DNA of 64,000 nt from a virus (taxonomy: Duplodnaviria > Heunggongvirae > Uroviricota > Caudoviricetes): IMG/VR virus record IMGVR_UViG_3300036944_001243. One strand, given 5' to 3'. Below the pieces are notes generated by a model. The model saw only the letters and a program-made list of their open reading frames with translations. It was not told the origin of the DNA and did no database searches. A program made the translations under genes and the position numbers. Positions 11 to 62,659 of this stretch are shown in pieces; position 1 is the first letter of the stretch, and each line of letters opens with the position of its first letter.

Positions 11-457
11 TTGAAGAAAATGGGTGTGGTTTATTTCGACCCATACAAAAAGCCATTTGTCAATGCTCCAGATGAAGATGAGAACACTCATGAAAGAATG
101 TATCAATTGATGGACAGCGGCGAATTTGACGAAGTTGCTCATCACTTTAAAAAAGTTCGTTCTTTCGATTTGTCAATGGTAGACCGCAGTGATTTTATTA
201 TTTGTTTTTTAAATCCAAAAGTTCCAACATACGGAACTGTCGAAGAACTTTCTTGGGCAGTTCGAATGAAAAGACCAATTTTTGTGGTTGTTGAAGGCGG
301 AAAATCAAAAACGCCCCTATGGGTGATGGGAATGCTACCTCATAAATATATTTACGATTCTTTTGACGAAGTGAAAAAAGTCTTGACAAATATTGATTCT
401 GGTATTAAATCAATTGACTCCGAAAGATGGAGGCTATTCAAACATGAACTTCGATGA
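11..457 (+). CDS. nucleoside 2-deoxyribosyltransferase-like protein (Rossmann-like); probable true start ATG at 20
   Basis: ORF track 148 aa; VYFDPY...FLNPKVPTYGTVEELSWAVRMKRPIFVVVEG resembles deoxyribosyltransferase/DUF4406 fold; paralog at 43895. Confidence 0.45.
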   Translation: MKKMGVVYFDPYKKPFVNAPDEDENTHERMYQLMDSGEFDEVAHHFKKVRSFDLSMVDRSDFIICFLNPKVPTYGTVEELSWAVRMKRPIFVVVEGGKSKTPLWVMGMLPHKYIYDSFDEVKKVLTNIDSGIKSIDSERWRLFKHELR

Positions 458-1020
458 ACATTGTAACTTCAGATTCAAAAACTACACTGCTACTCAATAA
501 CGCTTGGCAACCGATCAATACGGTTACTGCTAGGGCAGCATTCACTCACCTTCTAAAAGGTCACGCGACTGCATTAGATAAAAATGGTGTATTGTTTCAC
601 TCTTTGAGTTCTTGGAACGAATTGGCAGAATTCTACGAAGATCAACCGATGCTTCGAAGTGCAAAGTCTGCATGGCCGATTCCAACAATTATTATTGTTA
701 CTAGCAAATTTTTCCGTAGACCAAAGAAAAGAAAGCTTAGTCTTTACGATCTAGCTAAAATTCATGGTTACATTTGCCAATACTGCCTTAACAAAACCGC
801 TTTGTCTGAATTGACAATCGATCACGTTAAGCCAAAAAGCAAAGGCGGCACAGATGATCACGAAAATCGTGTTCTTGCTTGTCGCTCCTGCAACACCAAG
901 AAGAGTTCGCATTCTCCTTGGTTCGATGTGAATGGAAACATTCCAAAAGCGCCATTGATTCCAGCTTTGATGCTCAATGCTCCAAAGATTCGGCAAGAAT
1001 GGGAAGGTTTTTTGCATTAA
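454..1020 (+). CDS. HNH homing endonuclease
   Basis: HVKPKSKGGTDDHENRVLACRSCNTKK HNH motif; start overlaps upstream stop (ATGA). Confidence 0.8.
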   Translation: MNIVTSDSKTTLLLNNAWQPINTVTARAAFTHLLKGHATALDKNGVLFHSLSSWNELAEFYEDQPMLRSAKSAWPIPTIIIVTSKFFRRPKKRKLSLYDLAKIHGYICQYCLNKTALSELTIDHVKPKSKGGTDDHENRVLACRSCNTKKSSHSPWFDVNGNIPKAPLIPALMLNAPKIRQEWEGFLH

Positions 1021-2970: not shown

Positions 2971-3054
2971 GGGTGTATAGGTAAGCGGACGAAACCACCT
3001 AGCTTTTAACTAGGTATCTCAACAACGTGGGTTCGAATCCCACTGCACCCACCA
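2971..3054 (+). tRNA. tRNA-Lys(TTT), extended variable region
   Basis: acceptor GGGTGTA/TGCACCC, anticodon stem CCTAG/CTAGG loop CTTTTAA, T-arm GTGGG-TTCGAAT-CCCAC, CCA. Confidence 0.65.
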
Positions 3055-4453: not shown

Positions 4454-5059
4454 ATGAGGAAATTTTATGATTGGGTTGAAATTCAACGCATGTATGATGA
4501 TGGATTATCTATGCGTGATATTAAATCAAAAATTGGTGTTAATATGGCATCTATGGTTAAAGCGGTTAGAAGAGGCGACCTCGTAACAAGGAGTTTATCT
4601 GATTCAATGAAATTGGTTGTCGCTCAAGGAAAAAATGATCCTGCCGCTATAATTCGTCAACCTAAACATCGTGAGGCGGCTCGTCAAAGGATGTTGGCTA
4701 GAATTAGCGAAAACCCTAATAACCATCCGAACAGAAAGCTCGCTGGTAATCGAAAAAACATGTCATTTCCAGAGAGATTAGTATTTGATTTATTTATTGA
4801 CAAAAAGATTAACTTTGAGCATAATAAGTATATTAAGCCTTTTTGGCCTGATTTTGTAATAGAGAACAAACTCATTATTGAAATTGATGGAGAAAGATGG
4901 CATGATAAAGAAAAAGATTTTCAAAAAGATATATTCTTTCGCTCTCTTGGTTATAGAGTCGTAAGAATTCCAGCTAAAGAGGTATTAAAAAATCCTTTAA
5001 TAGTATTAAATTTCATCGGGGATGAGGAAGACAGCGAATCCGCTACGTTTGGGACGTAG
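4454..5059 (+). CDS. HTH + DUF559/Vsr-like endonuclease domain protein (putative homing endonuclease)
   Basis: C-terminal ...LIIEIDGERWHDKEKDFQKDIFFRSLGYRVVRIPAKEV matches DUF559 restriction-endonuclease-like fold. Confidence 0.55.
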   Translation: MRKFYDWVEIQRMYDDGLSMRDIKSKIGVNMASMVKAVRRGDLVTRSLSDSMKLVVAQGKNDPAAIIRQPKHREAARQRMLARISENPNNHPNRKLAGNRKNMSFPERLVFDLFIDKKINFEHNKYIKPFWPDFVIENKLIIEIDGERWHDKEKDFQKDIFFRSLGYRVVRIPAKEVLKNPLIVLNFIGDEEDSESATFGT

Positions 5060-5101: not shown

Positions 5102-5199
5102 CGTGCAGTTGCCTAGCTTGGTAAGGAGCCTGACTTGGAATCAGGTAGCGGGGACAAGAGCGTTTACCGTCGTGGGTTCGAATCCCACCTGTGCGACCA
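5102..5199 (+). tRNA. tRNA-Pro(TGG)-like, 98 nt with about 26-nt insertion between anticodon and T arms
   Basis: acceptor CGTGCAG/CTGTGCG (2 GU), anticodon stem CCTGA/TCAGG loop CTTGGAA, T-arm GTGGG-TTCGAAT-CCCAC, CCA+ATTT. Confidence 0.5.
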
Positions 5200-6224: not shown

Positions 6225-6296
6225 GCTTCGTTAGCTCAGTGGTAGAGCGGATTCTTTATAAGGGTCGGGTCGCTGGATCGTTCCCAGCACGAAGTA
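6225..6296 (+). tRNA. tRNA, anticodon TAT? (Ile-UAU-like), irregular T-loop ATCGTTC, no CCA
   Basis: acceptor GCTTCGT/ACGAAGT, D-arm GCTC-AGTGGTA-GAGC, anticodon stem GATTC/GGGTC loop TTTATAA. Confidence 0.45.
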
Positions 6297-6563: not shown

Positions 6564-6639
6564 GGATTAGTCATCTAATAGGCTAAGATCCTCCCGAGTG
6601 TGGAGGCAACGTGGGTTCAAGACCCCACCTAATCCACCA
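6564..6639 (+). tRNA. tRNA-like, anticodon undetermined (loop CGAGTGT, G33; possible AGT), 8-nt T-loop
   Basis: perfect acceptor GGATTAG/CTAATCC, CCA+ATTT; anticodon stem CCTCC/GGAGG; non-canonical loop. Confidence 0.45.
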
Positions 6640-6650
6640 ATTTATTTTAT

Positions 6651-6726
6651 GGGGCTATAGCATAATTGATAATGCATCTGCTTTGCAAGCAGCCGACTGT
6701 CGGTTTGAGTCCGACTAGCTCCACCA
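6651..6726 (+). tRNA. tRNA-Ala(TGC)
   Basis: acceptor GGGGCTA/TAGCTCC (G3-U70), D-stem GCAT/ATGC, anticodon loop TTTGCAA, T-arm GTCGG-TTTGAGT-CCGAC, CCA. Confidence 0.8.
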
Positions 6727-7119: not shown

Positions 7120-7193
7120 GTTCCGTTCGTCTAATGGTAAGACTACTCCCTCCAAAAGAGAAAACGTGGGTTCGATTCCTACACGGTTCGCCA
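7120..7193 (+). tRNA. tRNA-Trp(CCA) with two U-U mismatches in acceptor
   Basis: D-arm GTC-TAATGGTAA-GAC, anticodon loop CTCCAAA, T-arm GTGGG-TTCGATT-CCTAC, CCA+ATTT. Confidence 0.5.
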
Positions 7194-7476: not shown

Positions 7477-7896
7477 ATGTCAAAAAAAGACTTAAAAGAA
7501 AAAAAATGTAAGAATTGTGGAGAGGTGAAATCTACTAAAGACTTTTATCCTCAAAAAGCTTATAATAATGGTGCAGTTTATGATACTTGGGATTGCTATT
7601 GCAAATCTTGCAGATTAGAAGCTTCAGCCGAGCGAAGAAGGATTTTAAAAAGAAAAGCTATAGAATATCTTGGTGGAAAATGCGCTGATTGTGGAGAATC
7701 AAGAGATATTCCATCTATTTATGATTTTCACCATTTAGATCCTAGCAAAAAAGATTTTTCAATTGGCAAACAAGCCAAAAAACTTGATTCTGTGAAGAAA
7801 GAACTCGACAAGTGTGTTCTTCTTTGTGCAAACTGTCACAGGATAAGACATTCTCAAAATCAAAAGGAGGTTGGCTTAGAAGCAGCCACGGATTGA
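7477..7896 (+). CDS. HNH homing endonuclease (zinc-finger + HNH)
   Basis: CKNCGEVKS...IYDFHHLDPSKKDFSIG...LDKCVLLCANCHRIRH. Confidence 0.8.
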   Translation: MSKKDLKEKKCKNCGEVKSTKDFYPQKAYNNGAVYDTWDCYCKSCRLEASAERRRILKRKAIEYLGGKCADCGESRDIPSIYDFHHLDPSKKDFSIGKQAKKLDSVKKELDKCVLLCANCHRIRHSQNQKEVGLEAATD

Positions 7897-8349: not shown

Positions 8350-8426
8350 GCGAATGTAGCGCAACTGGCAGAGGCAATAGTTCGAGGGACTATATAGTGC
8401 GGGTTCGAATCCCGCCATTCGCACCA
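8350..8426 (+). tRNA. tRNA with anticodon GAG (Leu-type anticodon) but class-I body, C33
   Basis: perfect acceptor GCGAATG/CATTCGC, anticodon stem ATAGT/ACTAT loop TCGAGGG, T-arm GCGGG-TTCGAAT-CCCGC, CCA. Confidence 0.5.
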
Positions 8427-8429
8427 AAT

Positions 8430-8510
8430 GGCTCAGTTGACAAAACAGGTAAAGTCGCTTCGCTTAGAACGAAGAATATCTTGTGGGTTCGACTCCCACC
8501 TGAGCCACCA
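8430..8510 (+). tRNA. tRNA with Leu anticodon TAG, short (8 nt) variable region
   Basis: acceptor GGCTCAG/CTGAGCC, anticodon stem CTTCG/CGAAG loop CTTAGAA, T-arm GTGGG-TTCGACT-CCCAC, CCA+ATTT. Confidence 0.6.
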
Positions 8511-8525
8511 ATTTACAAAACAAAA

Positions 8526-8768
8526 ATGATAAACAAAGACACTCTAGTAACTGCTGTATGGTGCGGTCCATGTAAAACAATCAAATTTTTTCTTGCTTCA
8601 AAGCCAAAAGACATCGATTTTGTCGATGCCGATGAGGATCAAGATTTCTGCAAACAATGGGGAATCAGAGCAGTTCCTACTTTAATTACCGTTAAAAACG
8701 AAAAAATAGTCGGTAATGAAAAAATCATGGAACATCTTTTGAAACTTCCTGATTTTAAAAGCGAATAA
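8526..8768 (+). CDS. thioredoxin/glutaredoxin-like protein
   Basis: WCGPCK active-site motif, ...VPTLI; ORF track N-terminal extension (8397-8525) overlaps tRNA and is rejected. Confidence 0.65.
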   Translation: MINKDTLVTAVWCGPCKTIKFFLASKPKDIDFVDADEDQDFCKQWGIRAVPTLITVKNEKIVGNEKIMEHLLKLPDFKSE

Positions 8769-8786
8769 ACAATTTCTAGAATAAGG

Positions 8787-8870
8787 GTCAGCTTAGTGGC
8801 GTAATTGACCACAGGTGTTTAGATAGACAATGGAGGCGGTGAGGTTCGATTCCCAACAGGCTCTGGTGAG
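8787..8870 (+). pseudogene. degenerate tRNA-like sequence (GGGTCAG...TTCGATT T-loop, no acceptor closure, no CCA)
   Basis: D-arm-like CTTAGTGGCGTAA and T-loop GGTTCGATTCC present but stems do not close. Confidence 0.3.
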
Positions 8871-8926
8871 TATACAGCTTCTCGGAACGAACGTGAAATC
8901 CTAGACAGACCTAATTTTAATGCAAT

Positions 8927-9003
8927 GGCTCGCTGCGCTAATTGGCAATGCGGCAATACTCAAGATATTGTGTCTCTCAGTTCGAATCTGAGGCGAGCTA
9001 CCA
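8927..9003 (+). tRNA. tRNA with Leu anticodon CAA, class-I body (very short variable region)
   Basis: acceptor GGCTCGC/GCGAGCT, D-loop TAATTGGCAA, anticodon stem CAATA/TATTG loop CTCAAGA, T-arm CTCAG-TTCGAAT-CTGAG, CCA. Confidence 0.5.
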
Positions 9004-10332
9004 TTATCTACTGACTTCTTCCCAGTCCATAGAGCCATGGACAAGTTCATTGTTTGTGCTTGCCGCAACTGCGAGAGTTAATTCGTAAGCTTCGCCAGTC
9101 AAACCGTTTCTTTCTAGTTGGAATTTAAACAGAGCTTCTTTGAGAATATCTATGGTTGTAGATGATTGAGTATTAGAGGCGAAGTAACCAGATGCTAATA
9201 CTCTGCCTCCAGATACTCCAGTTCCATTTAACTTGTATTCTATGGACGAGTTAACTCCTGCATCAGTCCAAGTGCCGCCTGTTGTGGTTCCAGATGCAAT
9301 TATTTTCCAATTATAAACACCACTGCCGATTCCCATTAAGGATAAAGCTGTTAAAATAACAATAGCGTCGAGCCTAGTTGATTTTAATTTTATAGAAACC
9401 ACAGGATAAAATGTTCCAGCAGTTCCTAAAGCTTTTGGCGCAGTTATTGCGGTTCCTGCTGCCTGTTGAAGACCTCTGAGTTCATAGCCTCCCTCTGATA
9501 TTACTGTGCTGCATATTTGTTTTAGTTTGCTAGAACCAGAAGTTGCGGCGGTATTTGCTATTTCATATCTAAGTGGTAAAGATGCTGTGGTGATATAAGT
9601 TGAATCAATGATGTTGGCGTGATGGAACGTATGACATAAAATAAATCTGCCATTGATAACAAACCCCATTCTTACTGATCCAAGACCTAACCATTCTATG
9701 TCCATCCATAAAATCTGTGCTTTGGTTATATCTAAAGTAAATCCAGACGCACCAGTTCCATCTAATTTATCGCCGTTCCAAGCTGATTGAGGAACTCTTG
9801 TTTCTGTAACTGGAGTGCCATCAACTAATGAGCGCTCAACCAAATTCAATGTTGAATCTACAAGCTCCAAATACATTCCATTATCAGCACCAAAATAGCC
9901 GACTCTTTGAGTAAGGCCAGTTTTCTCTGGAGACATTACAAAAGTATTTAAGTTAAGTAAGCTTTTCCCTGGTTGATAAGCAAAAACTTTTGTTGTTTCT
10001 CTAGTAATGAATGAACCAGAAGCGTTGGTTACATTTAGTTCCATGAGCCCCTCATTTTGATTAAATGAGACACTGCCACTGACTCCACTCGCTGTTGACC
10101 AAAGATTGTTGTCAGCGTATCTATGACTAGAATCAAACAATGTTAGCGGGCTTGAAGTTCTCATTCTGCCAAAAGCGTCAAAAGATGTTGATCCTTCTGA
10201 ATTGGCAAAACTTAAATCGCTTTTTTCTATTGGTCTGTATGTGTCTTCAGTGCGGTCATATAAAAATGGAATTTGCCCAGCGGTGTGAGCTAATTGATTT
10301 AAATTCTGGAAATTATATTGTTGCGCTGACAT
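9004..10332 (-). CDS. Gly/Ser/Thr-rich large protein, putative virion structural/receptor-binding-like protein
   Basis: 442 aa, repeated NxSG/TGxxG motifs, compositional similarity to 16313..17836 and 61086..61907; function not recognisable from sequence. Confidence 0.3.
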   Translation of the reverse strand: MSAQQYNFQNLNQLAHTAGQIPFLYDRTEDTYRPIEKSDLSFANSEGSTSFDAFGRMRTSSPLTLFDSSHRYADNNLWSTASGVSGSVSFNQNEGLMELNVTNASGSFITRETTKVFAYQPGKSLLNLNTFVMSPEKTGLTQRVGYFGADNGMYLELVDSTLNLVERSLVDGTPVTETRVPQSAWNGDKLDGTGASGFTLDITKAQILWMDIEWLGLGSVRMGFVINGRFILCHTFHHANIIDSTYITTASLPLRYEIANTAATSGSSKLKQICSTVISEGGYELRGLQQAAGTAITAPKALGTAGTFYPVVSIKLKSTRLDAIVILTALSLMGIGSGVYNWKIIASGTTTGGTWTDAGVNSSIEYKLNGTGVSGGRVLASGYFASNTQSSTTIDILKEALFKFQLERNGLTGEAYELTLAVAASTNNELVHGSMDWEEVSR

Positions 10333-10477
10333 GGTGGAAATTAATCATTTTTAATAAAGACCCAGACTTTTCACAGAACTGCGATTTTTTATTATAAAAT
10401 ATGTTACACTTTTTTTTTGCGAAAATCAATATTTAGTCTTGACTCGCGACTAATTCCTGATAGAATAGGTTCACAAA

Positions 10478-10564
10478 GGCTCAATGGTGGAATTGCCAGA
10501 CACTGGAGACTTAAAATCTTTTGCTCGGAAGAGCGTGCGGGTTGGAGTCCCGCTTGAGCTACCA
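10478..10564 (+). tRNA. tRNA-Leu(TAA), type II
   Basis: acceptor GGCTCAA/TTGAGCT, anticodon stem GGAGA/TCTTT loop CTTAAAA, long variable arm TGCTCGGAAGAGCG, T-arm GCGGG-TTGGAGT-CCCGC, CCA+AATTT. Confidence 0.7.
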
Positions 10565-10567
10565 AAT

Positions 10568-11068
10568 TTAATGGCCCGTTACGCTAATTGGCAGTGCGGC
10601 TTCGCTTAAAACGAAGTGGTTCTCAGTTCGAATCTGAGGCGGGCTACTTTTTCTTCTTCTCCAAGTTGGAGTTTGTGCATGACAATTACAACATAAAAGT
10701 TTTAAATTAGATATTTCATTATTAGTCCTATCTCCATCTATATGTTCTATTTCCAATGGAATTAATTCTCCCATCCATTTTTGATTTTTACAATTTTCGC
10801 AACAATGACCTTTAAATTGTATTAAATGTTTTTTTAAATTTACAGCCCTAGAATAATTTTTCCAATCTTTAAGCTGTTGATCTTTATTCCATGCAGATCC
10901 AGTCCAATGAGAAGTGTCGATATTTAATCTCTGTAAATTTCTTTTAATATTTGCAAAATTTCCTCCTACGGATTTGAGGTTTAATTTCTTCAAAAGTTGA
11001 GAAATATTGTTGACATTTTTCGAATAATTAATAATATCTTCGTCTGTGTAGTTCCTGTATTTTTTCAT
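10568..11068 (-). CDS. HNH homing endonuclease
   Basis: EIEHIDGDRTNNEISNLKLLCCNCHAQT. Confidence 0.8.
   Translation of the reverse strand: MKKYRNYTDEDIINYSKNVNNISQLLKKLNLKSVGGNFANIKRNLQRLNIDTSHWTGSAWNKDQQLKDWKNYSRAVNLKKHLIQFKGHCCENCKNQKWMGELIPLEIEHIDGDRTNNEISNLKLLCCNCHAQTPTWRRRKSSPPQIRTENHFVLSEAALPISVTGH
10573..10646 (+). tRNA. tRNA with Leu anticodon TAA, class-I body, no CCA
   Basis: acceptor GGCCCGT/GCGGGCT (2 GU), anticodon stem CTTCG/CGAAG loop CTTAAAA, T-arm CTCAG-TTCGAAT-CTGAG; close paralog of 8927 tRNA. Confidence 0.45.
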
Positions 11069-12658: not shown

Positions 12659-13258
12659 TATCTAATATGCCAATTCCATCTCCAAGAAATAAAGAAAAAA
12701 AGACTGATTTTGTGAGCCGTTGCGTTTCGCAGATCAGTAAAGAATACAAAGACAATAAGCAAGCCGTAGCAATTTGCTACAATCAATTTCAAGAAGCAAA
12801 AGCATCTGCTGAAGGTGTTGTTGATTTGGAAAATGATGAAATGCTTATTTTAAAAGATTTATAATGGGATCGCGTAGTTTCGATTTTACGAAGGATTCAT
12901 TGATTAGCATCGCAAGAGATGATGGTTGGCTCTTTAAAAAATCCATCAAAAAAAAACAAACGGCAAAAATAACATTGTCACCTTCCGTAAGTCTGCAAAA
13001 GTTGTCCGCAAGGCCACTCTCGCTACTGCGTAAGTATCACGCTCAGAAGAACGCTCGCTCTTTTTTGAGTATCAAATCGAGCAACAAAACAGTTTGTTGA
13101 TTCTGCAAAAATCAACTGGTGGAGGACAAAGTAGGAACTACCAAGAACCGAATGTCCCTCAGATGACTAACTGTAAATAGTCAAAAATATAAGCATGTTT
13201 GAAGATCAATGAGAATAAGTAGAAGACACGGGGGGCGGCTCCCCGTCGATTCCACCAA

Positions 13259-13375
13259 TTTTGGGCATGACAAGGTGTAGATGAGAGTTCGAATCTCTCA
13301 CGGTCCACTCGACGGGCCGAATGGTAGTGGCGCGACGGCGCTCTTTGGGTTCGAATCCCAACATGTCCACTAATT
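13259..13375 (+). ncRNA. candidate Y-RNA-like ncRNA with tRNA-like modules, upstream of Ro60-like gene
   Basis: GGGCCGAATGGTAGTGG (13314-13330) closely matches conserved Y RNA 5' Ro-binding strand GGUCCGA(A/U)GGUAGUG; two T-arm-like hairpins GAGAG-TTCGAAT-CTCTC and TTGGG-TTCGAAT-CCCAA; CCACTA downstream complementary to TGGTAGTGG. Confidence 0.35.
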
Positions 13376-13419: not shown

Positions 13420-13870
13420 ATACAGATTTGAGTGCTGAATGAAACTGTTACTTCACTGCAATTCGAAAAAACACAGTTTCAAATTATTGCCTCAAAACTT
13501 TTTGTATCATTCCAGCTTTTGCAATGAGGACATGAGTAGATGACGTTTCAAGGACGCATCCTAGCCCCCTTCGAAAATGAGTGACCTGATCAAAGGTTGG
13601 AATGATATAAAAATACTTTTCAGTGGCGATTTAAAACGGCTACTTCTTTATATTGAACATAAAAGGTCTTGGTTCGAATCCAAGTGCGGCTTTGCAAGTC
13701 GTATGGTGTAATGGCAGCATTCAAACTATCCGTTTTAGCTTATTCCCTGAAATCTCTTCCTCTTAGGTGGCGAAGGTTACAGTTACTTCATAATCCCACG
13801 GGCTGATCGGTTCGATTCCGACTTGTTGTGTAATGGTAGCACTCCTGTTCAAAAAGCCTGTAATCGATTA
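13420..13870 (+). ncRNA. cluster of tRNA-like fragments (T-arm-like hairpins at 13667-13684, 13806-13822; D-arm-like GGTGTAATGGCAGC, GTAATGGTAGC) without complete cloverleafs
   Basis: no ORF; fragments in 3'-half then 5'-half order; between promoter 13390 and Ro60-like gene. Confidence 0.3.
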
Positions 13871-13893: not shown

Positions 13894-15348
13894 ATGAAAC
13901 CTTACGGCTTAAAAGCTCGAAAACGTTTTCTTTGGGAAGACGTTGAAATCTCTAAAGGTAGAGAACGCTCTTCTGCTAATTCAAAAATCAGAAAAGAAGT
14001 TCTTGACTTTGACGAAAACGTAGATATAATCAGCGACATGAAAACAAATGTAAAAAATACTCCGAAGCCTGTTCGAACCCACGAAGGCGCGGTAGCGAAG
14101 CGCATCACTCCAATCCAAGAACTTCGACGTTCTGTTATGGCTTGCATGCTTTGGGAAAACTCCTTCTATGAATCTGGCAAGACAATTGCTGATCGTATCA
14201 AAGAACTTGTTTCCAAGGTTTCTGGAAAGGATGCGATGCACATCGCGATTGAGGCTCGCGAAAGCATGAAGTTGCGACACACCCCTCTTTATATTGCCCG
14301 CCTCATGGCCAAGAATCCAAAGCAGCGTGAATACGTTGCAGATACTTTGGTGCGAATCATCCAGCGAGCAGATGAACTTTCTGAGTTCTTATCTATCTAC
14401 TGGAAGGGCGGTAAGACTCCTATTGCAAACCAAGTGAAGAAAGGTCTTGCTACCGCATTCACAAAGTTTAATGAATATGATCTTTCAAAGTATAATCGTG
14501 ATGGTGCAGTCACACTGAAGGATGTTCTTTTTATGGTTCACGCTCGTCCTACTAGCGAAAACCAAGAAAAGCTCTGGAAGCGACTGATCAATGACGAACT
14601 CAAGACTCCTGATACTTGGGAAGTTGAACTCTCAGCTTCTAAGGACAAGAAGGCTTCTTGGACTCGCCTTTTGGAAGAAAATAAGCTTGGCGCACTCGCG
14701 CTTCTTCGAAACATTCGAAACATGGAAGAAGCAAAGGTTCCTGAAAAGTTGATTCGATCTGCTCTTCTTAACATGAAGACCGAACGAGTTCTTCCTTTCC
14801 GCTTCATTTCTGCTGCGCGTCATGCTCCTAAGTATGAAAACGAACTGGAATCCTCCATGCTCAAGTGCATGGAAAATAGCGAAAAGCTTTCTGGTAAGAC
14901 TATTATTCTTGTTGATATTTCTGTTTCAATGCACAGCAAAGTTTCTGGCAAGAGTGATATTTCTCGCTTGGATGCTGCTTGCGGTGTCGCAATGCTTCTG
15001 CGAGAAATCTGTGATACTGTTGAAGTCCACAGCTTTTCTTACAAGACCAAGCTCGTTCCTTCTCGTCGCGGCTTCGCCTTGGCAGAAGCAATCAGCAAGT
15101 CTCAGATGCATCAGGGAACTTACCTTGGAGAATCCGTCAAGGAAATGAACCTGAAGTCTGCTGATCGTTTGATTGTCATCACTGATGAACAGTCTGCGGA
15201 TCGGGTTCCTAATCCAGCTTTTGACAAAGCTTACATGATCAATATCGCGTCTTACAGGAACGGTGTTGGTTATGACAAGTGGACTCATATCGATGGTTGG
15301 AGTGAATCGGTAGTTAATTACATTATTTCTCTTGAAAAAGAGTTCTAA
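13894..15348 (+). CDS. TROVE + von Willebrand A domain protein, Ro60/Rsr-like RNA-binding protein
   Basis: 484 aa; central ...MLWENSFYESGKT... TROVE-like; C-terminal vWA with MIDAS DxSxS (TIILVDISVSMHS) as in Ro60 (DVSGSM). Confidence 0.55.
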   Translation: MKPYGLKARKRFLWEDVEISKGRERSSANSKIRKEVLDFDENVDIISDMKTNVKNTPKPVRTHEGAVAKRITPIQELRRSVMACMLWENSFYESGKTIADRIKELVSKVSGKDAMHIAIEARESMKLRHTPLYIARLMAKNPKQREYVADTLVRIIQRADELSEFLSIYWKGGKTPIANQVKKGLATAFTKFNEYDLSKYNRDGAVTLKDVLFMVHARPTSENQEKLWKRLINDELKTPDTWEVELSASKDKKASWTRLLEENKLGALALLRNIRNMEEAKVPEKLIRSALLNMKTERVLPFRFISAARHAPKYENELESSMLKCMENSEKLSGKTIILVDISVSMHSKVSGKSDISRLDAACGVAMLLREICDTVEVHSFSYKTKLVPSRRGFALAEAISKSQMHQGTYLGESVKEMNLKSADRLIVITDEQSADRVPNPAFDKAYMINIASYRNGVGYDKWTHIDGWSESVVNYIISLEKEF

Positions 15349-16095: not shown

Positions 16096-16169
16096 GGGAC
16101 GGTGTTGTAGTGGGAGCATCCGAAATTGTGAATTTCGCGGGAACGGATCATAACCGTTACGTCCCTCCA
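16096..16169 (+). tRNA. tRNA-His(GTG), A54 T-loop ATCATAA
   Basis: acceptor GGGACGG/ACGTCCC, anticodon stem CGAAA/TTTCG loop TTGTGAA, CCA+TTTTT. Confidence 0.65.
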
Positions 16170-19475: not shown

Positions 19476-21407
19476 ATGAAGACCGCAGTAGTTTCCTCTC
19501 CTCTTATCGCTTCCGAAAATCTTGAAGGTTCCGTCATGGGCATGGACTCTTCTGGAATGAATCAAGCGACTTATTTCTTGCGCGACAAGATTTATTCCAA
19601 CAAGGTTCTTGCTGTTGTGCGAGAATACATCTGTAACGCTGTTGACGAACACAATAAGCATGGCATCAAAAAGCCTGTGCAAGTTGGATTTCGCCGCGAA
19701 GGTGGTGAAAATCTTTTCTTTGTTCGCGATTTTGCTCATGGTCTTAATGAGCATGACGTTCGCAACGTTTTTGGTATGTATTTCCGCAGCACCAAGTCTC
19801 AAAGCAATGCGCTGATTGGTGGCTTTGGAATCGGCTCGAAAGCGGGTCACTGTTACAACGATACATTTTTCGTCAGTTCGTTTTTCCAAAATGCCAAGAC
19901 CACATATACCTGTATGCTTGGTGGAGATTCTGGTGTGCCTGTTGGTCATATTTATGAAATTGGCAAGTCAGATACTCAAGAATCTGGATTGGAAATCTCC
20001 ATTCCAATCAAGGGCGGCGATGTGTCACTTTTCAGAAATGAAATTCAATTTTTTGTAGCATTTTCCCCAGCAGATATTGAGTTCCATGATTTTGATGCTC
20101 TAACCTTCGTCAAAGACAAGGACATCATTTCTAAAAATGTCGATGGATTTAATGTTCGACTTATTCCATGGGCAAATGTATGTGCTGGTTCTGCTAAACT
20201 TGATACTTATAATAGACGTAATAGTGTCATTGTGCAGATGGGTGGCGTTTCTTATGGTTCAATGAGCATCTCAGATCGTTCATTCTCCATTAAAAGTCAT
20301 CACATTCTTGTCGTGGATGTTCCTGTCGGCAGCATGTCGATCCCAATCAGCCGCGAATCTTTCGAAGATACGCCAAGCAACAATAAAATCTATGCTAAAA
20401 TCAATAGCATTATTAATGATCTGGCCGAAAAAGATTTGGCGCAATTCAAGACCAAAACCCCTCAAGAACTGCTGGATGATTGCTTGAATTTCCCACTTAG
20501 CAAAAGCGTTGAGTATTGCGGCGATATTTTCACAGCCTCCAAGTCAAAACTTTATGCTGATTTTTGGCCATTCATTAGCAAGGTTGAGCAATCAAACTTT
20601 GGCGTAGCCGCAGAAAAGAAAAACGGCAAGTATGTCATCATCACGATTCCTAACAATTTTGCCGAAAAATACTGGCGTAGCAAGCTGATTGATTTCAGCA
20701 AGAGCGTTGGTCGCAATTATTACTTCGTGTCTGAGTATTTGACATCTACAGCGTCCAAGGTTAATTGGTCTGATCATTTTGAATTTGTTTTTGCAAAGAA
20801 ACTCGATTATCCCAAAACGAAGCGTGATACCAAGAGGTATTCTATTTATTCCAATTATGGAAACATCGGAAGTTTCAATCCTCTTGAATTGCACAATCGA
20901 GCCCGCAATGGACTCACTGGCGCACAAGATGAAAAAGAAGCCAAAAAGCAAGTTCTGGAATCTCTAAAGAAGGCTGATAGCCTCAATGCCTTGGCAACTT
21001 ACACGATTGCGAACCGAAATAATACGAATAAAAATGCCAATTCAATCGGCTACTACACATCTTCTGACAAGTTTCTAGAAATGATGGTGAAGGACATCGG
21101 TTGGCTTGAATATAATTCTCAGGAATACCGTGATTATCATTCTGCGATTCTCAAAAAGCAGAAAGAAAAGCAGGAAACACAAAATGCAATCGTCAATTCT
21201 CGACGCAAGTGGTTGGAGTTTCATCCTCGCACATCGCGACTGCTTGAAGCTGATCCTAAAAATGCGCTACGCATCGTAAGATTCTGGCAAAAAATCAGAA
21301 ACGAATCGTCGTTCAGATCCAAGATGGTGAAGACTTTTGAGAGTGCTGGATATAGTTGCCCAGTGTATACTCGATCTGAATTTCGCTCGATCTTGAAGAT
21401 GAAATAA
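19476..21407 (+). CDS. large GHKL-type (histidine kinase/Hsp90/MORC-like) ATPase domain protein
   Basis: N-box EYICNAVDEH, G1 RDFAHGLN, G2 GGFGIGSKAG in N-terminal 130 aa; 643 aa. Confidence 0.45.
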   Translation: MKTAVVSSPLIASENLEGSVMGMDSSGMNQATYFLRDKIYSNKVLAVVREYICNAVDEHNKHGIKKPVQVGFRREGGENLFFVRDFAHGLNEHDVRNVFGMYFRSTKSQSNALIGGFGIGSKAGHCYNDTFFVSSFFQNAKTTYTCMLGGDSGVPVGHIYEIGKSDTQESGLEISIPIKGGDVSLFRNEIQFFVAFSPADIEFHDFDALTFVKDKDIISKNVDGFNVRLIPWANVCAGSAKLDTYNRRNSVIVQMGGVSYGSMSISDRSFSIKSHHILVVDVPVGSMSIPISRESFEDTPSNNKIYAKINSIINDLAEKDLAQFKTKTPQELLDDCLNFPLSKSVEYCGDIFTASKSKLYADFWPFISKVEQSNFGVAAEKKNGKYVIITIPNNFAEKYWRSKLIDFSKSVGRNYYFVSEYLTSTASKVNWSDHFEFVFAKKLDYPKTKRDTKRYSIYSNYGNIGSFNPLELHNRARNGLTGAQDEKEAKKQVLESLKKADSLNALATYTIANRNNTNKNANSIGYYTSSDKFLEMMVKDIGWLEYNSQEYRDYHSAILKKQKEKQETQNAIVNSRRKWLEFHPRTSRLLEADPKNALRIVRFWQKIRNESSFRSKMVKTFESAGYSCPVYTRSEFRSILKMK

Positions 21408-21446
21408 TCCTTGACAAATCAACAAAAAAACGTAAAATAAGTAGCA

Positions 21447-22433
21447 ATGAAATACATTATCAACAACAACGGAATCGTGTTCTTTCACCAAAACAAGCCT
21501 GTGAAGGTTGAAAAGAACTCCCCTCAATATTCACGAATCATTCGTGCATTTGATCTTGATCCTGATGATCAGGAATCTGCCATCAATGACATTCTTAATG
21601 AAAAGAGTGGACTCTTTGAACGCGATGGTTTTGTCGTGACTGAAACCGAAGTCATTTATAACGGAGAGCCTATTCCAGATGTTCTGGCCAATAAGATTCG
21701 CTCGATTGTGGCTGAATGTCTTCCTGTTTCTCTTTTCGGAAAGTTCTGGGAAAATCTTCAACAGAATCCTTCTGCATCTTCTGTCAGGGAGCTTTATGAG
21801 TTCCTTGCCTACAAGGAGCTTCCAATCACAGAGGATGGCTGTTTCCTCGCTTATAAGGGCCTTCAGAGCGATTACTGGTCGATCTCTGGCAACACCAAGA
21901 CCAAGGTGGTCAAAGGCACCTCAGATAGCGCTGGACGCATTCTGAATAGCGTTGGCGAGGAAATCGAAGTTCGCCGCTTTGATGTTGACGACAACCGTAA
22001 TCAGCACTGCTCATTCGGTCTGCACGTCGGTTCTCTCGACTACGCTCGCGATTTCTCTCAAGGAAAGCTTGTCGTTGTTAAGGTTAATCCAAAGGATGTC
22101 GTTAGTGTTCCTACTGACTACTCCTGTCAGAAGTGCCGTGTCTCTGCCTACAAGGTTGTGGATGATTTCGAAAAGGAAATCACTGCATCTGTGACTGATG
22201 AAAATGCGGTCGAAATCCAGTCAGAAGACACAAAAGAATATGATCGATTCCTTAACCGTATCGTGTCTTACCTTGACTCCAAGATTGCCAAAGGATTTGA
22301 AGCGGTTTCTGTTCGCTCTATTCAGAATGCATTCTCTCCAGATTATCCATCCCGAGTTCGCGTGCTTGCTGCACTGAATGACCTTGATTATGTCTGGGTC
22401 GAAACTGACGAAGGATTTTCTGTTCTTCTTTGA
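21447..22433 (+). CDS. hypothetical protein
   Basis: 328-aa ORF; followed by strong terminator. Confidence 0.4.
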   Translation: MKYIINNNGIVFFHQNKPVKVEKNSPQYSRIIRAFDLDPDDQESAINDILNEKSGLFERDGFVVTETEVIYNGEPIPDVLANKIRSIVAECLPVSLFGKFWENLQQNPSASSVRELYEFLAYKELPITEDGCFLAYKGLQSDYWSISGNTKTKVVKGTSDSAGRILNSVGEEIEVRRFDVDDNRNQHCSFGLHVGSLDYARDFSQGKLVVVKVNPKDVVSVPTDYSCQKCRVSAYKVVDDFEKEITASVTDENAVEIQSEDTKEYDRFLNRIVSYLDSKIAKGFEAVSVRSIQNAFSPDYPSRVRVLAALNDLDYVWVETDEGFSVLL

Positions 22434-25524: not shown

Positions 25525-26295
25525 ATGCAAAAAGGTTTAAATATCAGTGGAATTTATCAAATTAAAAATAAAACGAACGGTAAATCATATATTGGAAGTT
25601 CGATAAATATTAGACTTAGATGGAAAGATCATAGAAGGAAGCTTCGCAAGGGGATTCATCATAGCAAACATTTGCAATCATCATTTGATAAATATGGTTT
25701 GGATTCATTTGAGTTTTTAATAATAGAAAAAGTTGATGATTTAAATAATTTATTAAAATCCGAACAAAAATGGATTGATTTTTATCAATCATATGATAGA
25801 TTATACGGATATAATTCTCGTAAATTCGCCAGCAGCAATTGGATGCTTTCTGTTTCTGATGAAACAAGAGAAAAATTAAAAAAATCTCATTTAGGGAAAA
25901 AAAGATCAAAAGAATGTCACAAAAAAATATTAGCCAGCATATCAAAAAAAGTTTATCAATTAGATAAAGAAACTTTAGAAAAAATTAATGAATTTTCGTC
26001 GTGTAAAGAAGGTGAAGAAAAAACAGGAATCGCGAGGCAGTTAATATCAATGGCATGTAGAGGAATTACAAAATCCGCAAAAGGTTATTGTTGGACATAT
26101 GATATTGATAATTTTAAAAAACCAGAAAAATATAATATCCTTCCAAAAGTTACCAGATTTATAATAGATCAAGATACTGGAAATGAATGGAAAACTATAA
26201 AAGAAGCAGCTGAATACTTAAATTTAACCAAAAATCAAATATACAGCTTAATTAAATGGAAAAAATTGATATATGAATATAGAAAAAACTACTAA
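25525..26295 (+). CDS. GIY-YIG homing endonuclease
   Basis: GIYQIKNKTNGKSYIGSSINIRLRWKDHRRKL GIY-YIG motif; AT-rich gene. Confidence 0.8.
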   Translation: MQKGLNISGIYQIKNKTNGKSYIGSSINIRLRWKDHRRKLRKGIHHSKHLQSSFDKYGLDSFEFLIIEKVDDLNNLLKSEQKWIDFYQSYDRLYGYNSRKFASSNWMLSVSDETREKLKKSHLGKKRSKECHKKILASISKKVYQLDKETLEKINEFSSCKEGEEKTGIARQLISMACRGITKSAKGYCWTYDIDNFKKPEKYNILPKVTRFIIDQDTGNEWKTIKEAAEYLNLTKNQIYSLIKWKKLIYEYRKNY

Positions 26296-35424: not shown

Positions 35425-36333
35425 ATGAACATCGGCCTCGTCTGCATCAGCGAAATCCTCAAAGAGCAAAACAAGCAAAACGCTTTTCAAACGATGACTC
35501 GCTCTCGTTTCAATGCGCTGCCGCGCACTGACGCGATTGCTCAGTTGTCGAGTCGAATTCGTCACAACGCTTCTCTTTGCGTCAAGATCATCCAGCACTG
35601 TGCTTCGATTGGCATCAAGCATTACCGCATTTCCAGCAGCTTGTTTCCACTCATTACAGACGAAACATTAGGCTTGTGTTATTCTGATTTGCCTGATTGG
35701 CAAAGTATTCAACAGATTCTTCTTCAGGCTGGCGATACTGCTCGACGCCTTGGCATCACGTTGTCTTCTCACCCTGATCAGTTCAATGTTCTGCCATCGC
35801 TCAATCAAGATACTGTTCGCCGCACGATTAGAGAACTAAATCATCAGGCATTTGTTCTTGATTTGTTTGGTTGCCCGCAAGATTATTCTGCGCCAATGTG
35901 TTTGCATCTTAATCTATCGTTTGATAGCAACAAAGAAAGTATCCTACAATACATGTCTCGTTTCAGCAGAGCTTTTAATAGTTGCGATTCTGGTGTTCGT
36001 CAACGTTTGGTTCTAGAAAACGAAGACAAAGGTTTCTGGAATTGCGAGAACCTCTACAAATACTTCAAACCTTTTCCACTTGTTTTCGACAATCTCCACG
36101 ATCAGTGCAATCGTTCGTCGGTCTGTCATTTTAATCTTTTTAAAAGCACATGGGGCAATTTCACGCCAGTAATGCACTGGAGCGAAGGCACTGCCGACAA
36201 GCCTCGCAGCCATGCAGATTTCGCATCTCACTTGCCGCTAATCGTGCAAAACAATTTGGACTGTGTGTGGGAATTCGAACTCAAGGGTAAAGACCATGCA
36301 ATCGTCAAAGTTCTGAAAAATCAATACGTTTGA
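35425..36333 (+). CDS. uvdE: UV damage endonuclease UvdE-like
   Basis: HYRISSSLFPL matches UvdE YRFSSSIVPLATH region. Confidence 0.6.
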   Translation: MNIGLVCISEILKEQNKQNAFQTMTRSRFNALPRTDAIAQLSSRIRHNASLCVKIIQHCASIGIKHYRISSSLFPLITDETLGLCYSDLPDWQSIQQILLQAGDTARRLGITLSSHPDQFNVLPSLNQDTVRRTIRELNHQAFVLDLFGCPQDYSAPMCLHLNLSFDSNKESILQYMSRFSRAFNSCDSGVRQRLVLENEDKGFWNCENLYKYFKPFPLVFDNLHDQCNRSSVCHFNLFKSTWGNFTPVMHWSEGTADKPRSHADFASHLPLIVQNNLDCVWEFELKGKDHAIVKVLKNQYV

Positions 36334-61930: not shown

Positions 61931-62659
61931 ATGGCTAAAAAAAAGCTCGACAAGTCGGGTTCTTTTGAGTTACATCCTCAACTAGAACATAAAATCAGAA
62001 CTAAAGCAAAAAAGTTCAGATTCTCAACGAAACAAGTTCATTTCTTGGACATGCTTCTCGACCCCAACAATTCTATAATTTTTGTTTCTGGTCCAGCAGG
62101 CACATCCAAAACATACATGTCTCTTTATGCGGCGATCCAGTTGATGGCGGCAGATCAAGACAAAGATCTATTGTATGTCCGAAGTATTATCGAAAGTGCC
62201 GAAAAAGGATTGGGCAGTTTACCAGGTGATATTGCCGAAAAATTCGATCCATTCTTGATGCCTCTCTACGATAAGCTGGAAGAAATTGTTCAGCCCCAAG
62301 ATGTTGTGTGGTTAAAGGCCGAAGGCAAAGTTGGAGCGTTGCCAGTTAACTTTTTGCGTGGTGCAAACTGGGTAAATAAGATTGTGGTGGCAGATGAGTG
62401 CCAAAATTTTACATTTAAAGAAATAACCACACTAATTACCCGCGTGGGCGAGGGCTCAAAACTTATTATCTGCGGCGACTTTATGCAGAGCGACATTGGC
62501 AACAAAAGCGGCTTCAAGCCAATCTTTAATTTGTTTAATGATCAAGAAAGTAAAGACAACGGCGTGCAAACATTCTCGTTTACTCATGACGATATTGTGC
62601 GCAGCGGTATTCTGAAGTTTTTGATTACTAAATTAGAAAATTATCAAGCCAACGTGTAA
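61931..62659 (+). CDS. phoH: PhoH-like ATPase
   Basis: Walker A VSGPAGTSKTYMSL and PhoH-type IICGDFMQSD. Confidence 0.75.
   Translation: MAKKKLDKSGSFELHPQLEHKIRTKAKKFRFSTKQVHFLDMLLDPNNSIIFVSGPAGTSKTYMSLYAAIQLMAADQDKDLLYVRSIIESAEKGLGSLPGDIAEKFDPFLMPLYDKLEEIVQPQDVVWLKAEGKVGALPVNFLRGANWVNKIVVADECQNFTFKEITTLITRVGEGSKLIICGDFMQSDIGNKSGFKPIFNLFNDQESKDNGVQTFSFTHDDIVRSGILKFLITKLENYQANV

What the first reader, a model, noticed from the sequence alone, without database searches (positions are those of the whole stretch)
8350..10646. Four class-I-bodied tRNAs carrying Leu anticodons (GAG, TAG, CAA, TAA) next to a canonical type-II tRNA-Leu(TAA)
- tRNAs at 8350, 8430, 8927 and 10573 have clean 5-bp anticodon stems with loops giving GAG, TAG, CAA and TAA.
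- Their variable regions are only 3-8 nt, whereas Leu identity normally comes with a long variable arm. The 10478 gene does have that long arm.
- The 8927 and 10573 tRNAs are close paralogs sharing D-loop and T-arm sequences.
- These may be Leu isoacceptors with atypical architecture, tRNAs charged with another amino acid (recoding), or decoys.
- Either way a phage supplying four extra Leu-codon readers is unusual.
Basis: seen in the sequence. Interest (0 to 1): 0.55.

Follow-up and report, generated by a model that had tools for sequence, protein, structure and literature searches.

The report
Short-armed leucine tRNAs in a phage
A large phage carries four leucine tRNAs that lack the usual long extra arm; they are real, but this is a common design in phages and some bacteria, so they are almost certainly ordinary leucine tRNAs and not a recoding device.

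Summary
ARAGORN, the Rfam tRNA model and my own covariance model all find tRNAs at 8350 (GAG), 8430 (UAG), 8927 (CAA) and 10573 (UAA). Each has a 7-nt anticodon loop. Variable regions are 5, 8, 5 and 5 nt. The tRNA at 10478 (UAA) has a 15-nt arm.

They are not an oddity of this phage:
- A D-arm motif from 8350 combined with short spacing pulled at least 120 viral contigs and at least 120 bacterial loci. All 241 tRNAs carrying it have Leu anticodons.
- The family has A73 (165/166), A14, A15:U48 and strong cloverleaf covariation.
- In a control sample of viral tRNA clusters chosen without reference to Leu, 13 of 48 Leu tRNAs are short-armed, against 1 of 34 Ser.
- Cultured phages carry them too: T5-like, FelixO1-like and Synechococcus phage S-CREM1.
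- Streptomyces coelicolor has a biochemically leucylated type I tRNALeu.

A close relative (L055) has a type I Leu(UAA) exactly where this window has the type II gene.

Best reading: these are working Leu isoacceptors charged by the host LeuRS. Together with the type II gene they cover 87% of the phage's Leu codons. Recoding and decoy readings are not supported.

Unexplained residues are C33 in the GAG tRNA and a C19:G56 elbow swap in the type II gene.

The parts
8350..8426 (+). tRNA-Leu(GAG), type I. 5-nt variable loop, A73, encoded CCA, D arm GCGC-AACUGGCAGA-GGC. It has C33 (loop UCGAGGG) and a G12.G23 mismatch.
   Evidence: ARAGORN. Rfam 49.2 bits. Family model R1 79.1 bits, the top hit. 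Parse.
8430..8510 (+). tRNA-Leu(UAG) with an 8-nt unpaired variable region, A73 and CCA. It starts 3 nt after the previous tRNA. It looks like an arm-truncated derivative of a type II phage Leu lineage.
   Evidence: 40.4 bits; 59.1 bits; its D arm and T arm nearly match a 90-nt type II Leu(CAG) in L023, differing mainly by a deletion of about 12 nt in the arm.
8927..9003 (+). tRNA-Leu(CAA), type I. 5-nt variable loop, G1:U72, A73, CCA, D arm CGCU-AAUUGGCAAU-GCG, G37.
   Evidence: ARAGORN. R1 60.7 bits. Not reported by Rfam. Identical in L055.
10439..10466 (+). Sigma-70-like promoter (TTGACT, 16 nt, TG-TAGAAT) 12 nt upstream of the type II Leu gene.
   Evidence: Consensus scan, 10 of 12 matches with an extended -10 TG. 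Conserved in L055. This is a consensus match only. Function is inferred.
10478..10564 (+). tRNA-Leu(UAA), canonical type II with a 15-nt variable arm, A73 and CCA. It has a swapped elbow pair C19:G56 (D loop AAUUGCCAGA, T loop UUGGAGU).
   Evidence: (44 bits). The swap is conserved in L269. L055 has a type I Leu(UAA) at the orthologous site.
10573..10647 (+). tRNA-Leu(UAA), type I. 5-nt variable loop, G1:U72, A73, no encoded CCA. Paralog of 8927 carrying the anticodon arm of 8430. It lies inside an insertion of about 558 bp that L055 lacks.
   Evidence: 48.4 bits; 68.5 bits. Identical copy in L269.
10568..11068 (-). HNH endonuclease ORF (166 aa). Its 3' end reads antisense through tRNA 10573-10647. 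It is part of the same insertion.
   Evidence: PHROG HNH endonuclease, E 1e-33. The insertion is absent from L055 and present in L269.

Best explanation
The four genes encode functional leucine tRNAs of the type I (short variable loop) design.

Proposed pathway:
1. They are transcribed as part of the phage's array of at least 31 tRNA genes.
2. They are trimmed by host RNase P and 3' processing enzymes. 10573 also needs the CCA-adding enzyme.
3. They are charged with leucine by the host LeuRS.
4. They read CUC/CUU (GAG), CUA and probably CUG (UAG), UUG (CAA) and UUA/UUG (UAA).

Charging works because bacterial LeuRS ignores the anticodon and does not need the long arm. It reads A73 and the D-loop/core geometry (U8:A14, A15:U48, G18G19), all of which these tRNAs keep.

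Their role is the usual one for phage tRNA arrays: to supply readers for the codons of an A+T-rich phage genome. The short arm arose several times by loss of the arm from type II Leu tRNAs. It persists because it costs little.

Shown here: gene structure, family membership, Leu-only anticodons, and interchange with a type II gene.
Inferred: transcription, charging and decoding.
For: Real tRNAs
- establish the four genes and their structure.

Family
- The pattern TGGCAGAGGC-N26-29-TTCGAATCC hit at least 120 IMG/VR contigs. All 121 tRNAs carrying it have Leu anticodons: UAA 45, UAG 28, CAA 27, CAG 9, GAG 8, AAG 4.
- The same pattern hit at least 120 bacterial loci, mostly Actinomycetota, and 120/120 are Leu.
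- The second D-arm type (CGCUAAUUGGCANUGCGG, as in 8927 and 10573) gave 14 of 14 Leu in metagenomes, including two long-armed copies.

Identity elements in 166 viral members
- A73 165, U8 164, 5-nt variable loop 151.
- A14 160, A15:U48 143, plus 10 cases of G15:C48 covariation.
- All four window tRNAs have A73, A14, A15 and U48.

Structure
- In the family alignment, 97% of cloverleaf cells are paired, against 63% in shuffles and 39-46% in slid controls. There are 900 double-change cells against 222.

Membership
- A model built without this phage's relatives ranks the four genes first in 17 kb, at 79.1, 68.5, 60.7 and 59.1 bits. The next tRNA scores 46.6.

Interchange
- With about 96-99% identical flanks and the same acceptor ends, the window has type II Leu(UAA) where L055 has type I Leu(UAA).

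Orthologs in L269
- L269 keeps all five Leu genes in the same order.
- The GAG gene shows compensatory changes: the 4:69 pair is swapped and the anticodon stem is replaced.

Codon use
- CUU 28%, UUG 21%, UUA 17%, CUC 13%, CUG 13%, CUA 8%. GC3 is 0.39. The only Leu tRNA missing is CAG.

Precedent
- S. coelicolor type I tRNALeu(CAA) is leucylated by its LeuRS (PMC6614811).
- A. aeolicus tRNALeu without the arm keeps about 8% of kcat/Km (PMC2377443).

Cultured phages with such genes
- S-CREM1, T5-like DaisyDussoix, FelixO1-like allfine, Enterococcus phage 113 and Gordonia phage Phendrix.
Against: - No expression or charging data exist for these genes, and the host is unknown.
- E. coli LeuRS did not charge the S. 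coelicolor type I tRNALeu in vitro (PMC6614811). Acceptance of the short arm therefore depends on the enzyme.
- 8350 has C33 in place of the near-universal U33 and only two Watson-Crick D-stem pairs. Its naked-RNA fold closes the anticodon loop to 3 nt.
- 10573 lacks CCA, duplicates the UAA specificity of its neighbour, and sits in a homing-endonuclease insertion. It may be a passenger.
- The window and L055 are too similar in the flanks (96-98%) for the tRNA identity (98.6-100%) to show selection.
Confidence: 0.8

Rival explanations
1. Defence-evasion replacements. The tRNAs are leucine tRNAs, but the short arm is selected. The idea is that it makes them poor substrates for host or rival-phage nucleases that recognise long-armed (type II) tRNAs, so they keep Leu decoding going after host tRNALeu is cut. 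This adds to the main explanation. It does not exclude it.
For: - Short arms are enriched in viral Leu (13 of 48) but not in viral Ser (1 of 34) in a control sample.
- Other tRNAs in this array also carry unusual elbows: C19:G56, A19:U56 and A54:U58.
- Phage tRNAs are known to rescue infection from tRNA-cutting defences (PMC11555353).
- Mammalian SLFN11 prefers type II tRNAs, and bacterial Schlafen nucleases that cut tRNA exist (PMC13462974).
Against: - No bacterial nuclease specific for long-armed tRNALeu is known to me or was found in the papers I searched.
- The same design is a normal chromosomal gene in many Actinomycetota: 80 of 120 loci are lone genes.
- This phage keeps a type II Leu(UAA) beside the type I copy.
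- The Ser versus Leu contrast is explained more simply: SerRS needs the arm and LeuRS does not.
Confidence: 0.1
2. Recoding or mischarging. A class I body with a Leu anticodon is charged with another amino acid, so the phage reassigns or blurs Leu codons.
Against: - Of the three bacterial synthetases that ignore the anticodon, AlaRS needs G3:U70, which all four lack (3:70 is G:C or C:G). SerRS needs the long arm. That leaves LeuRS.
- This rests on established identity rules as reviewed in PMC9976931.
- The scaffold carries all six Leu anticodons and no others in 241 of 241 cases.
- These tRNAs read 87% of the phage's Leu codons. Reassigning them would rewrite every protein.
Confidence: 0.02
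3. Dead or decoy genes. Some of the four, most plausibly 8350 or 10573, are decaying duplicates or non-decoding tRNA-like RNAs carried along in a recombining, endonuclease-rich array.
For: - 8350 has C33 and a G12.G23 mismatch.
- 10573 has no CCA, is redundant with 10478, and lies inside an HNH insertion that L055 lacks.
- A tRNA-like remnant lies at 8789-8864.
Against: - All stems are intact: 12/12 acceptor plus T pairs and 5/5 anticodon pairs.
- C33 recurs in unrelated type I Leu(GAG) genes, 7 of 13 bacterial and about 4 of 13 viral, so it is a family trait.
- G12.G23 occurs in 4 of 166 members.
- 10573 is identical in the more distant relative L269.
- The only difference between 8350 and its L055 ortholog is at wobble position 34 (G to A). 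That is a specificity change, not decay.
Confidence: 0.07

Closest known systems
Type I tRNALeu(CAA) of Streptomyces coelicolor (Nucleic Acids Res 2019, PMC6614811)
   Same: - A bacterial-type tRNALeu with a 5-nt variable loop that coexists with type II isoacceptors and is leucylated by a bacterial LeuRS.
- U8:A14 is an identity element there, and it is present here.
- The D-arm motif GCCC-AAYUGGCAGA-GGC that defines the viral family is also common in Actinomycetota chromosomes, including a Streptomyces.
   Different: - Here the genes are phage-borne, four in one array, covering four anticodons.
- Two of them (8927, 10573) use a different D-arm sequence, and one (8430) has an 8-nt variable region.
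- The host enzyme is unknown.
- In S. coelicolor A73 was dispensable, and E. coli LeuRS could not charge that tRNA.
Short-armed tRNA-Leu genes annotated in cultured phages: T5-like Escherichia phage DaisyDussoix, FelixO1-like phage allfine, Synechococcus phage S-CREM1, Enterococcus phage 113, Gordonia phages Phendrix and Sixama
   Same: - Length of 73-78 nt, Leu anticodons, A73, and the same D-loop AAYUGGCAGA or close variants.
- They sit in tRNA arrays, sometimes next to a type II Leu or an HNH gene.
   Different: - Those records annotate them simply as tRNA-Leu.
- I found no paper in the searchable library that discusses the short arm in phages.
- Sequence identity to the window genes is only about 74-82% over partial lengths.
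Animal mitochondrial tRNALeu(UUR/CUN)
   Same: Leu tRNAs without a long variable arm, charged by a bacterial-type LeuRS that relies on A73 and the tRNA core.
   Different: - Mitochondrial tRNAs have reduced, A/U-rich cores.
- S. coelicolor LeuRS did not charge human mitochondrial tRNALeu(UUR) (PMC6614811).
- The phage tRNAs keep full canonical D and T loops (G18G19, UUCGAAU).
Phage T4 tRNA gene region with the SegB homing endonuclease (my own recollection, not checked here)
   Same: A phage tRNA array interspersed with homing-endonuclease genes that promote its inheritance and reshuffling. Here there are HNH ORFs at 454, 7477 and 10568 and a DUF559 ORF at 4454.
   Different: - T4's single tRNALeu is long-armed.
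- The endonucleases here are HNH, not GIY-YIG, and no homing activity was tested.

Membership tests
Type I (short variable loop) tRNA-Leu of bacteria and phages | Complete cloverleaf with a 7-bp acceptor stem, 5-bp anticodon stem, 5-bp T stem and 7-nt anticodon loop | tested here: met
   All four have 12/12 acceptor plus T pairs and 5/5 anticodon-stem pairs. The register agrees with the Rfam model and with R1.
Type I (short variable loop) tRNA-Leu of bacteria and phages | Variable region of 4-5 nt without a helix | tested here: met
   8350, 8927 and 10573 have 5 nt. 8430 has 8 unpaired nt, which is short-armed but outside the family norm. That norm is 5 nt in 151 of 166 members, and 8 nt occurs once.
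Type I (short variable loop) tRNA-Leu of bacteria and phages | Leu anticodon (NAG or YAA) | tested here: met
   The anticodons are GAG, UAG, CAA and UAA. The scaffold motif is tied to Leu anticodons in 121/121 viral and 120/120 bacterial cases.
Type I (short variable loop) tRNA-Leu of bacteria and phages | Discriminator A73 | tested here: met
   A73 is present in all four and in 165 of 166 family members.
Type I (short variable loop) tRNA-Leu of bacteria and phages | tRNALeu-type D arm and core: 3-bp D stem with unpaired 13/22, U8:A14, A15:U48, G18G19 | tested here: met
   All four have U8, A14, A15, G18G19 and U48. 8350 has only two Watson-Crick D-stem pairs because of G12.G23.
Type I (short variable loop) tRNA-Leu of bacteria and phages | Scores as a member with a covariance model built from independent members | tested here: met
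   R1 was built from 137 viral sequences, with L055 left out. The four score 79.1, 68.5, 60.7 and 59.1 bits. The other tRNAs of the window score at most 46.6. Part of that margin comes from the anticodon columns.
Type I (short variable loop) tRNA-Leu of bacteria and phages | Leucylated by LeuRS | not testable with these tools
   Shown only for S. coelicolor tRNALeu(CAA) (PMC6614811). Here it is inferred from identity elements and from the type I / type II exchange at one locus.
Canonical bacterial type II tRNA-Leu | Variable arm of more than 10 nt forming a stem-loop | tested here: not met
   Not met by 8350, 8430, 8927 and 10573 (5-8 nt, no stem). Met by 10478 (15 nt, GCUC-GGAA-GAGC).
Recoding or mischarged tRNA (body identity differs from anticodon) | Identity elements of another anticodon-independent synthetase: G3:U70 for Ala, or a long arm for Ser | tested here: not met
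   The 3:70 pair is G:C, C:G, C:G and C:G, and none has a long arm. The identity rules are taken from PMC9976931 and general knowledge.
tRNA pseudogene or decoy | Broken helices or loss of invariant tertiary nucleotides | tested here: inconclusive
   The helices are intact. 8350 carries C33 and G12.G23, and 10573 lacks CCA. C33 recurs in the family, which argues against decay. Function was not measured.

The most novel reading that the evidence does not exclude
The short arm is adaptive, not neutral. On this reading phages repeatedly strip the variable arm from tRNALeu so that their own Leu tRNAs escape nucleases that recognise long-armed tRNAs. These could be host defence enzymes or phage-made shut-off enzymes. 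This array's swapped elbow pairs and its C33 Leu(GAG) would belong to the same strategy of looking unlike host tRNA.
Probability: 0.1. Interest if true: 0.7.

Novelty: new member of a known kind. Interest (0 to 1): 0.33.

Why it matters
For this window it matters little. The genes are further examples of a design already annotated in many phage genomes and characterised biochemically in one bacterium.

The wider picture may be less well known than it should be. Roughly a quarter of viral Leu tRNAs lack the long arm. They form Leu-only families with conserved identity elements. Type I and type II genes also swap at one locus between near-identical phages.

The textbook rule that bacterial tRNALeu is always long-armed is used in tRNA classification and in identity models. 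T5-like coliphages offer a tractable system to ask how LeuRS handles both designs, and whether the short arm gives the phage any advantage.

Tried and rejected
- Selection test. I compared the tRNAs with their flanks between the window and L055. The flanks are 96-98% identical, so the 98.6-100% identity of the tRNAs says nothing. Compensatory changes came only from the more distant L269.
- BLAST of the individual tRNAs against cultured phages gave only a few partial hits and no cyanophage. A family consensus query worked far better.
- A 6.9-kb query of the tRNA array gave only scattered single-tRNA hits.
- Host and lineage. Only the structural gene 9004-10332 matches Synechococcus myoviruses, at 70-80%. 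24 kb of the window has no megablast match. rIIA is 25-32% identical to any isolate. I therefore dropped the label 'cyanophage' and leave the host open.
- Rfam did not report 8927 in either run. I did not resolve why, and rely on ARAGORN and R1 for it.
- Literature. Seven searches for phage short-armed tRNALeu found nothing beyond the S. coelicolor paper. The library lacks most subscription journals, so older T5 tRNA papers may exist.
- The Schlafen/type II tRNA lead gave no evidence of a bacterial nuclease specific for long-armed tRNAs.
- I did not run tRNAscan-SE isotype models because the program is not available here.
Full report
OBSERVATION

ARAGORN finds 31 tRNA genes between 1353 and 16271, all on the + strand. 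Five of them are Leu:
- 8350-8426 (GAG)
- 8430-8510 (UAG)
- 8927-9003 (CAA)
- 10478-10564 (UAA)
- 10573-10647 (UAA)

The Rfam tRNA model independently hits 8350, 8431, 10478 and 10573, with the same 7-nt anticodon loops. It does not report 8927. ARAGORN and my own model do.

A cloverleaf parse gives every one of the four short genes 7 acceptor pairs, 5 T-stem pairs and 5 anticodon-stem pairs. Their variable regions are 5, 8, 5 and 5 nt. 10478 has a 15-nt arm with a GCUC/GAGC stem. The description is confirmed.

8927 and 10573 are 57/74 identical. Their D arms differ at one base, their T arms are identical, and all five anticodon-stem pairs are exchanged. The anticodon arm of 10573 is that of 8430 except at nucleotide 36.

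WHAT THE BODIES LOOK LIKE

All four have U8, A14, A15, G18G19, U48 and the discriminator A73. All have a 3-bp D stem with 13/22 unpaired and a D loop of the form AAYUGGCAGA.

That is the D arm of ordinary long-armed bacterial and phage tRNALeu. The type II Leu genes found in the viral loci read GCGG/GUGG-AAUUGGYAGA-CGC/CAC. These are therefore Leu bodies that lack the arm. They are not bodies of another isotype carrying a Leu anticodon.

None has G3:U70, the Ala determinant. None has a long arm, which SerRS needs. AlaRS, SerRS and LeuRS are the bacterial synthetases that do not read the anticodon (established identity rules, reviewed in PMC9976931). That leaves LeuRS as the only plausible charging enzyme.

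A LARGE FAMILY

I took the D-arm motif of 8350 and required short spacing to the T loop (TGGCAGAGGC-N26-29-TTCGAATCC).
All 121 tRNAs that hold it carry Leu anticodons: UAA 45, UAG 28, CAA 27, CAG 9, GAG 8, AAG 4. Lengths are 73-79 nt.
- In one genome per bacterial species it again hit at least 120 loci, mostly Actinomycetota. All 120 are Leu, and 80 are lone chromosomal genes.

Among 166 distinct, well-formed viral members:
- A73 is present in 165, U8 in 164, and a 5-nt variable loop in 151.
- A14 is present in 160 and A15:U48 in 143, with 10 cases of G15:C48 covariation.

An alignment of 137 members, with this phage's relative left out, supports the cloverleaf. 97% of cells are paired, against 63% in shuffles and 39-46% when partners are slid. 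There are 900 double-change cells against 222.

A covariance model built from that alignment ranks the four window genes first in the 17-kb array, at 79.1, 68.5, 60.7 and 59.1 bits. The best other tRNA scores 46.6 and the type II Leu 41.2.

The second D-arm type, used by 8927 and 10573 (CGCUAAUUGGCANUGCGG), hit 59 metagenome contigs. 14 of those hits lie in tRNAs that ARAGORN calls. All 14 are Leu: 12 short-armed and 2 of 93 nt. [quoted passage not shown] Short-armed Leu tRNAs have therefore arisen more than once from long-armed ones.

HOW COMMON IS IT

The samples above were chosen for the trait. As a control I pulled 120 viral loci with a D-arm pattern typical of other isotypes (TAGCTCAGTTGGTAGAGC).
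- Among the well-formed, distinct tRNAs there, 13 of 48 Leu have variable regions of 8 nt or less. 11 of these have exactly 5 nt, and 12 of the 13 have A73.
- The corresponding figures are 1 of 34 for Ser and 3 of 15 for Tyr.

A family consensus matched 1000 records of cultured phages, 314 of them over at least 80% of its length. The sampled rows were nearly all annotated tRNA-Leu. They span T5-like and FelixO1-like coliphages and Salmonella phages, as well as Mycobacterium, Streptomyces, Gordonia, Vibrio and Erwinia phages and Synechococcus phage S-CREM1. I checked three of them:
- S-CREM1 has a 73-nt Leu(UAA).
- T5-like DaisyDussoix has a 77-nt Leu(UAA).
- FelixO1-like allfine has a 78-nt Leu(UAA).

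Enterococcus phage 113 and Gordonia phage Phendrix carry them too. Loci with three or four short-armed Leu genes recur. The trait is ordinary for phages.

RELATIVES OF THIS PHAGE

L055 is a 48-kb IMG/VR contig and a close mosaic relative.
- Its ortholog of 8350 differs only at wobble position 34 (AAG instead of GAG).
- Its ortholog of 8430 differs only at position 72.
- Its ortholog of 8927 is identical.
- The flanks are equally similar (96-98%), so this says nothing about selection.

The informative site is 10478. The upstream flank is about 96% identical, the aligned downstream sequence is identical, and the acceptor-stem ends are the same. At that site the window has the type II Leu(UAA), and L055 has a typical type I Leu(UAA). 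Two near-identical phages thus use either design in the same slot.

The window also has an insertion of about 558 bp that L055 lacks. It holds the type I Leu(UAA) 10573 and an antisense HNH endonuclease ORF (10568-11068, PHROG E 1e-33), and it is bounded by ACCAAAYTT repeats.

L269 is a more distant metagenome relative (76-96% identity). It keeps all five Leu genes in the same order, including the insertion. Its GAG gene has a swapped 4:69 pair and a wholly different but still paired anticodon stem. It has U33 and a normal C12:G23.

LIKELY FUNCTION

The window has 41% G+C and GC3 of 0.39. In 67 ORFs, Leu codons are CUU 28%, UUG 21%, UUA 17%, CUC 13%, CUG 13% and CUA 8%.

By standard wobble rules the five Leu tRNAs read every Leu codon except, strictly, CUG. 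That is 87% of Leu codons. The one missing isoacceptor is CAG.

A sigma-70-like promoter lies 12 nt upstream of 10478 and is conserved in L055. The genes are 3 and 8 nt from their neighbours, as in co-transcribed arrays. Three of the four short-armed genes encode CCA.

The host is not established. Only one gene, 9004-10332, resembles Synechococcus myoviruses, and L269 lacks it at that place. rIIA is 25-32% identical to any isolate.

The published biochemistry is compatible:
- S. coelicolor LeuRS charges its type I tRNALeu(CAA) (PMC6614811).
- A. aeolicus tRNALeu without the arm keeps about 8% of kcat/Km. The arm is described there as providing binding energy and not identity (PMC2377443).
- One caveat stands. 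E. coli LeuRS did not charge the S. coelicolor type I tRNA (PMC6614811), even though coliphages carry such genes.

RIVALS

- Recoding. The identity elements and the Leu-only anticodon spectrum argue against it.
- Decay or decoy. This cannot be excluded for 8350 (C33, G12.G23) or for 10573 (no CCA, redundant, in an endonuclease insertion). However, the stems are intact, 10573 is identical in L269, and C33 is a recurring trait.
- Selection of the short arm for escape from nucleases. This is possible but has no direct support. The contrast with Ser has a simpler cause: SerRS needs the arm.

UNEXPLAINED

- C33. The loop of 8350 is UCGAGGG. C33 occurs in 7 of 13 bacterial and about 4 of 13 viral type I Leu(GAG) genes, with unrelated stems. 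The naked-RNA fold pairs C33 with G37.
- The type II gene 10478 has C19:G56 in place of G19:C56, conserved in L269.
- Several other tRNAs of the array have swapped elbow or T-loop pairs.

VERDICT

The interpretation 'atypical Leu isoacceptors' is right. 'Recoding', 'decoy' and 'unusual for a phage' are not supported. These are new members of a known kind and of modest interest.

Noticed in passing
window 12866-13257 (+), 13894-15348 (+), and 13314-13369 and 13625-13692 between them: A tmRNA gene (Rfam RF00023, 61 bits) lies next to a TROVE/Ro60-like ORF (Pfam PF05731, E 1.5e-15). Weak tRNA-like hits lie between them and could be a Y-RNA-like partner. ARAGORN's default run did not list the tmRNA.
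   Followed up: partly
window 5102-5199 and 2971-3054: tRNA-Pro(UGG) has a 26-nt variable region and tRNA-Lys(UUU) has a 12-nt one. These class I isotypes have expanded variable regions, the reverse of the Leu case. The 98-nt Pro is conserved in L055.
   Followed up: no
window 10478-10564, 6651-6726, 6225-6296, 16096-16169, 2611-2687: Non-canonical elbows and T loops. Type II Leu has C19:G56 (also in L269). Ala has A19:U56. Ile(UAU) and His have A54:U58 in place of U54:A58. Phe has A54. In most of these both partners have changed together, which suggests the tertiary pairs are kept while their sequence is altered.
   Followed up: partly
window 8350-8426; L055 11949-12025; several bacterial and viral loci: C33 replaces the near-universal U33 in type I tRNA-Leu(GAG/AAG/CAG). 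This holds in 7 of 13 bacterial and about 4 of 13 viral GAG members. The L269 ortholog has U33.
   Followed up: partly
window 7120-7193, 1514-1590, 6564-6639: tRNAs missed by the default ARAGORN run: Trp(CCA), a further Met(CAU), and an odd tRNA called Thr(AGU) that has G33. They were found by Rfam, by R1, or by ARAGORN at a lowered threshold.
   Followed up: partly
window 8789-8864: A low-scoring tRNA-like remnant with a GGTTCGATTCC T-loop motif lies between the thioredoxin ORF and tRNA-Leu(CAA). A -10-like TAGAAT lies just upstream. The sequence is 98% conserved in L055.
   Followed up: no
window 454-1020, 4454-5059, 7477-7896, 10568-11068, 25525-26295: Three HNH ORFs and a DUF559 ORF lie in the tRNA array, and a GIY-YIG/NUMOD ORF lies about 9 kb beyond it. 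The presence and absence of the 10568 cassette between relatives suggests that endonucleases drive shuffling of the tRNA array.
   Followed up: partly
window 9004-10332 (-): A virion structural protein gene (PHROG 1645, 70-80% nucleotide identity to Synechococcus myoviruses) sits inside the tRNA array in the window and in L055. At that place in L269 the CAA and UAA tRNAs are adjacent. It diverges far more between the window and L055 (83%) than its flanks do (96-98%).
   Followed up: partly
window 40004-40951, 41594-43234, 35425-36333, 61931-62659: Auxiliary genes: a PRPP-synthase-like ORF, nicotinamide phosphoribosyltransferase, UvdE UV endonuclease and PhoH. rIIA and rIIB are at 19476-22433. 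The lineage has no close cultured relative.
   Followed up: no
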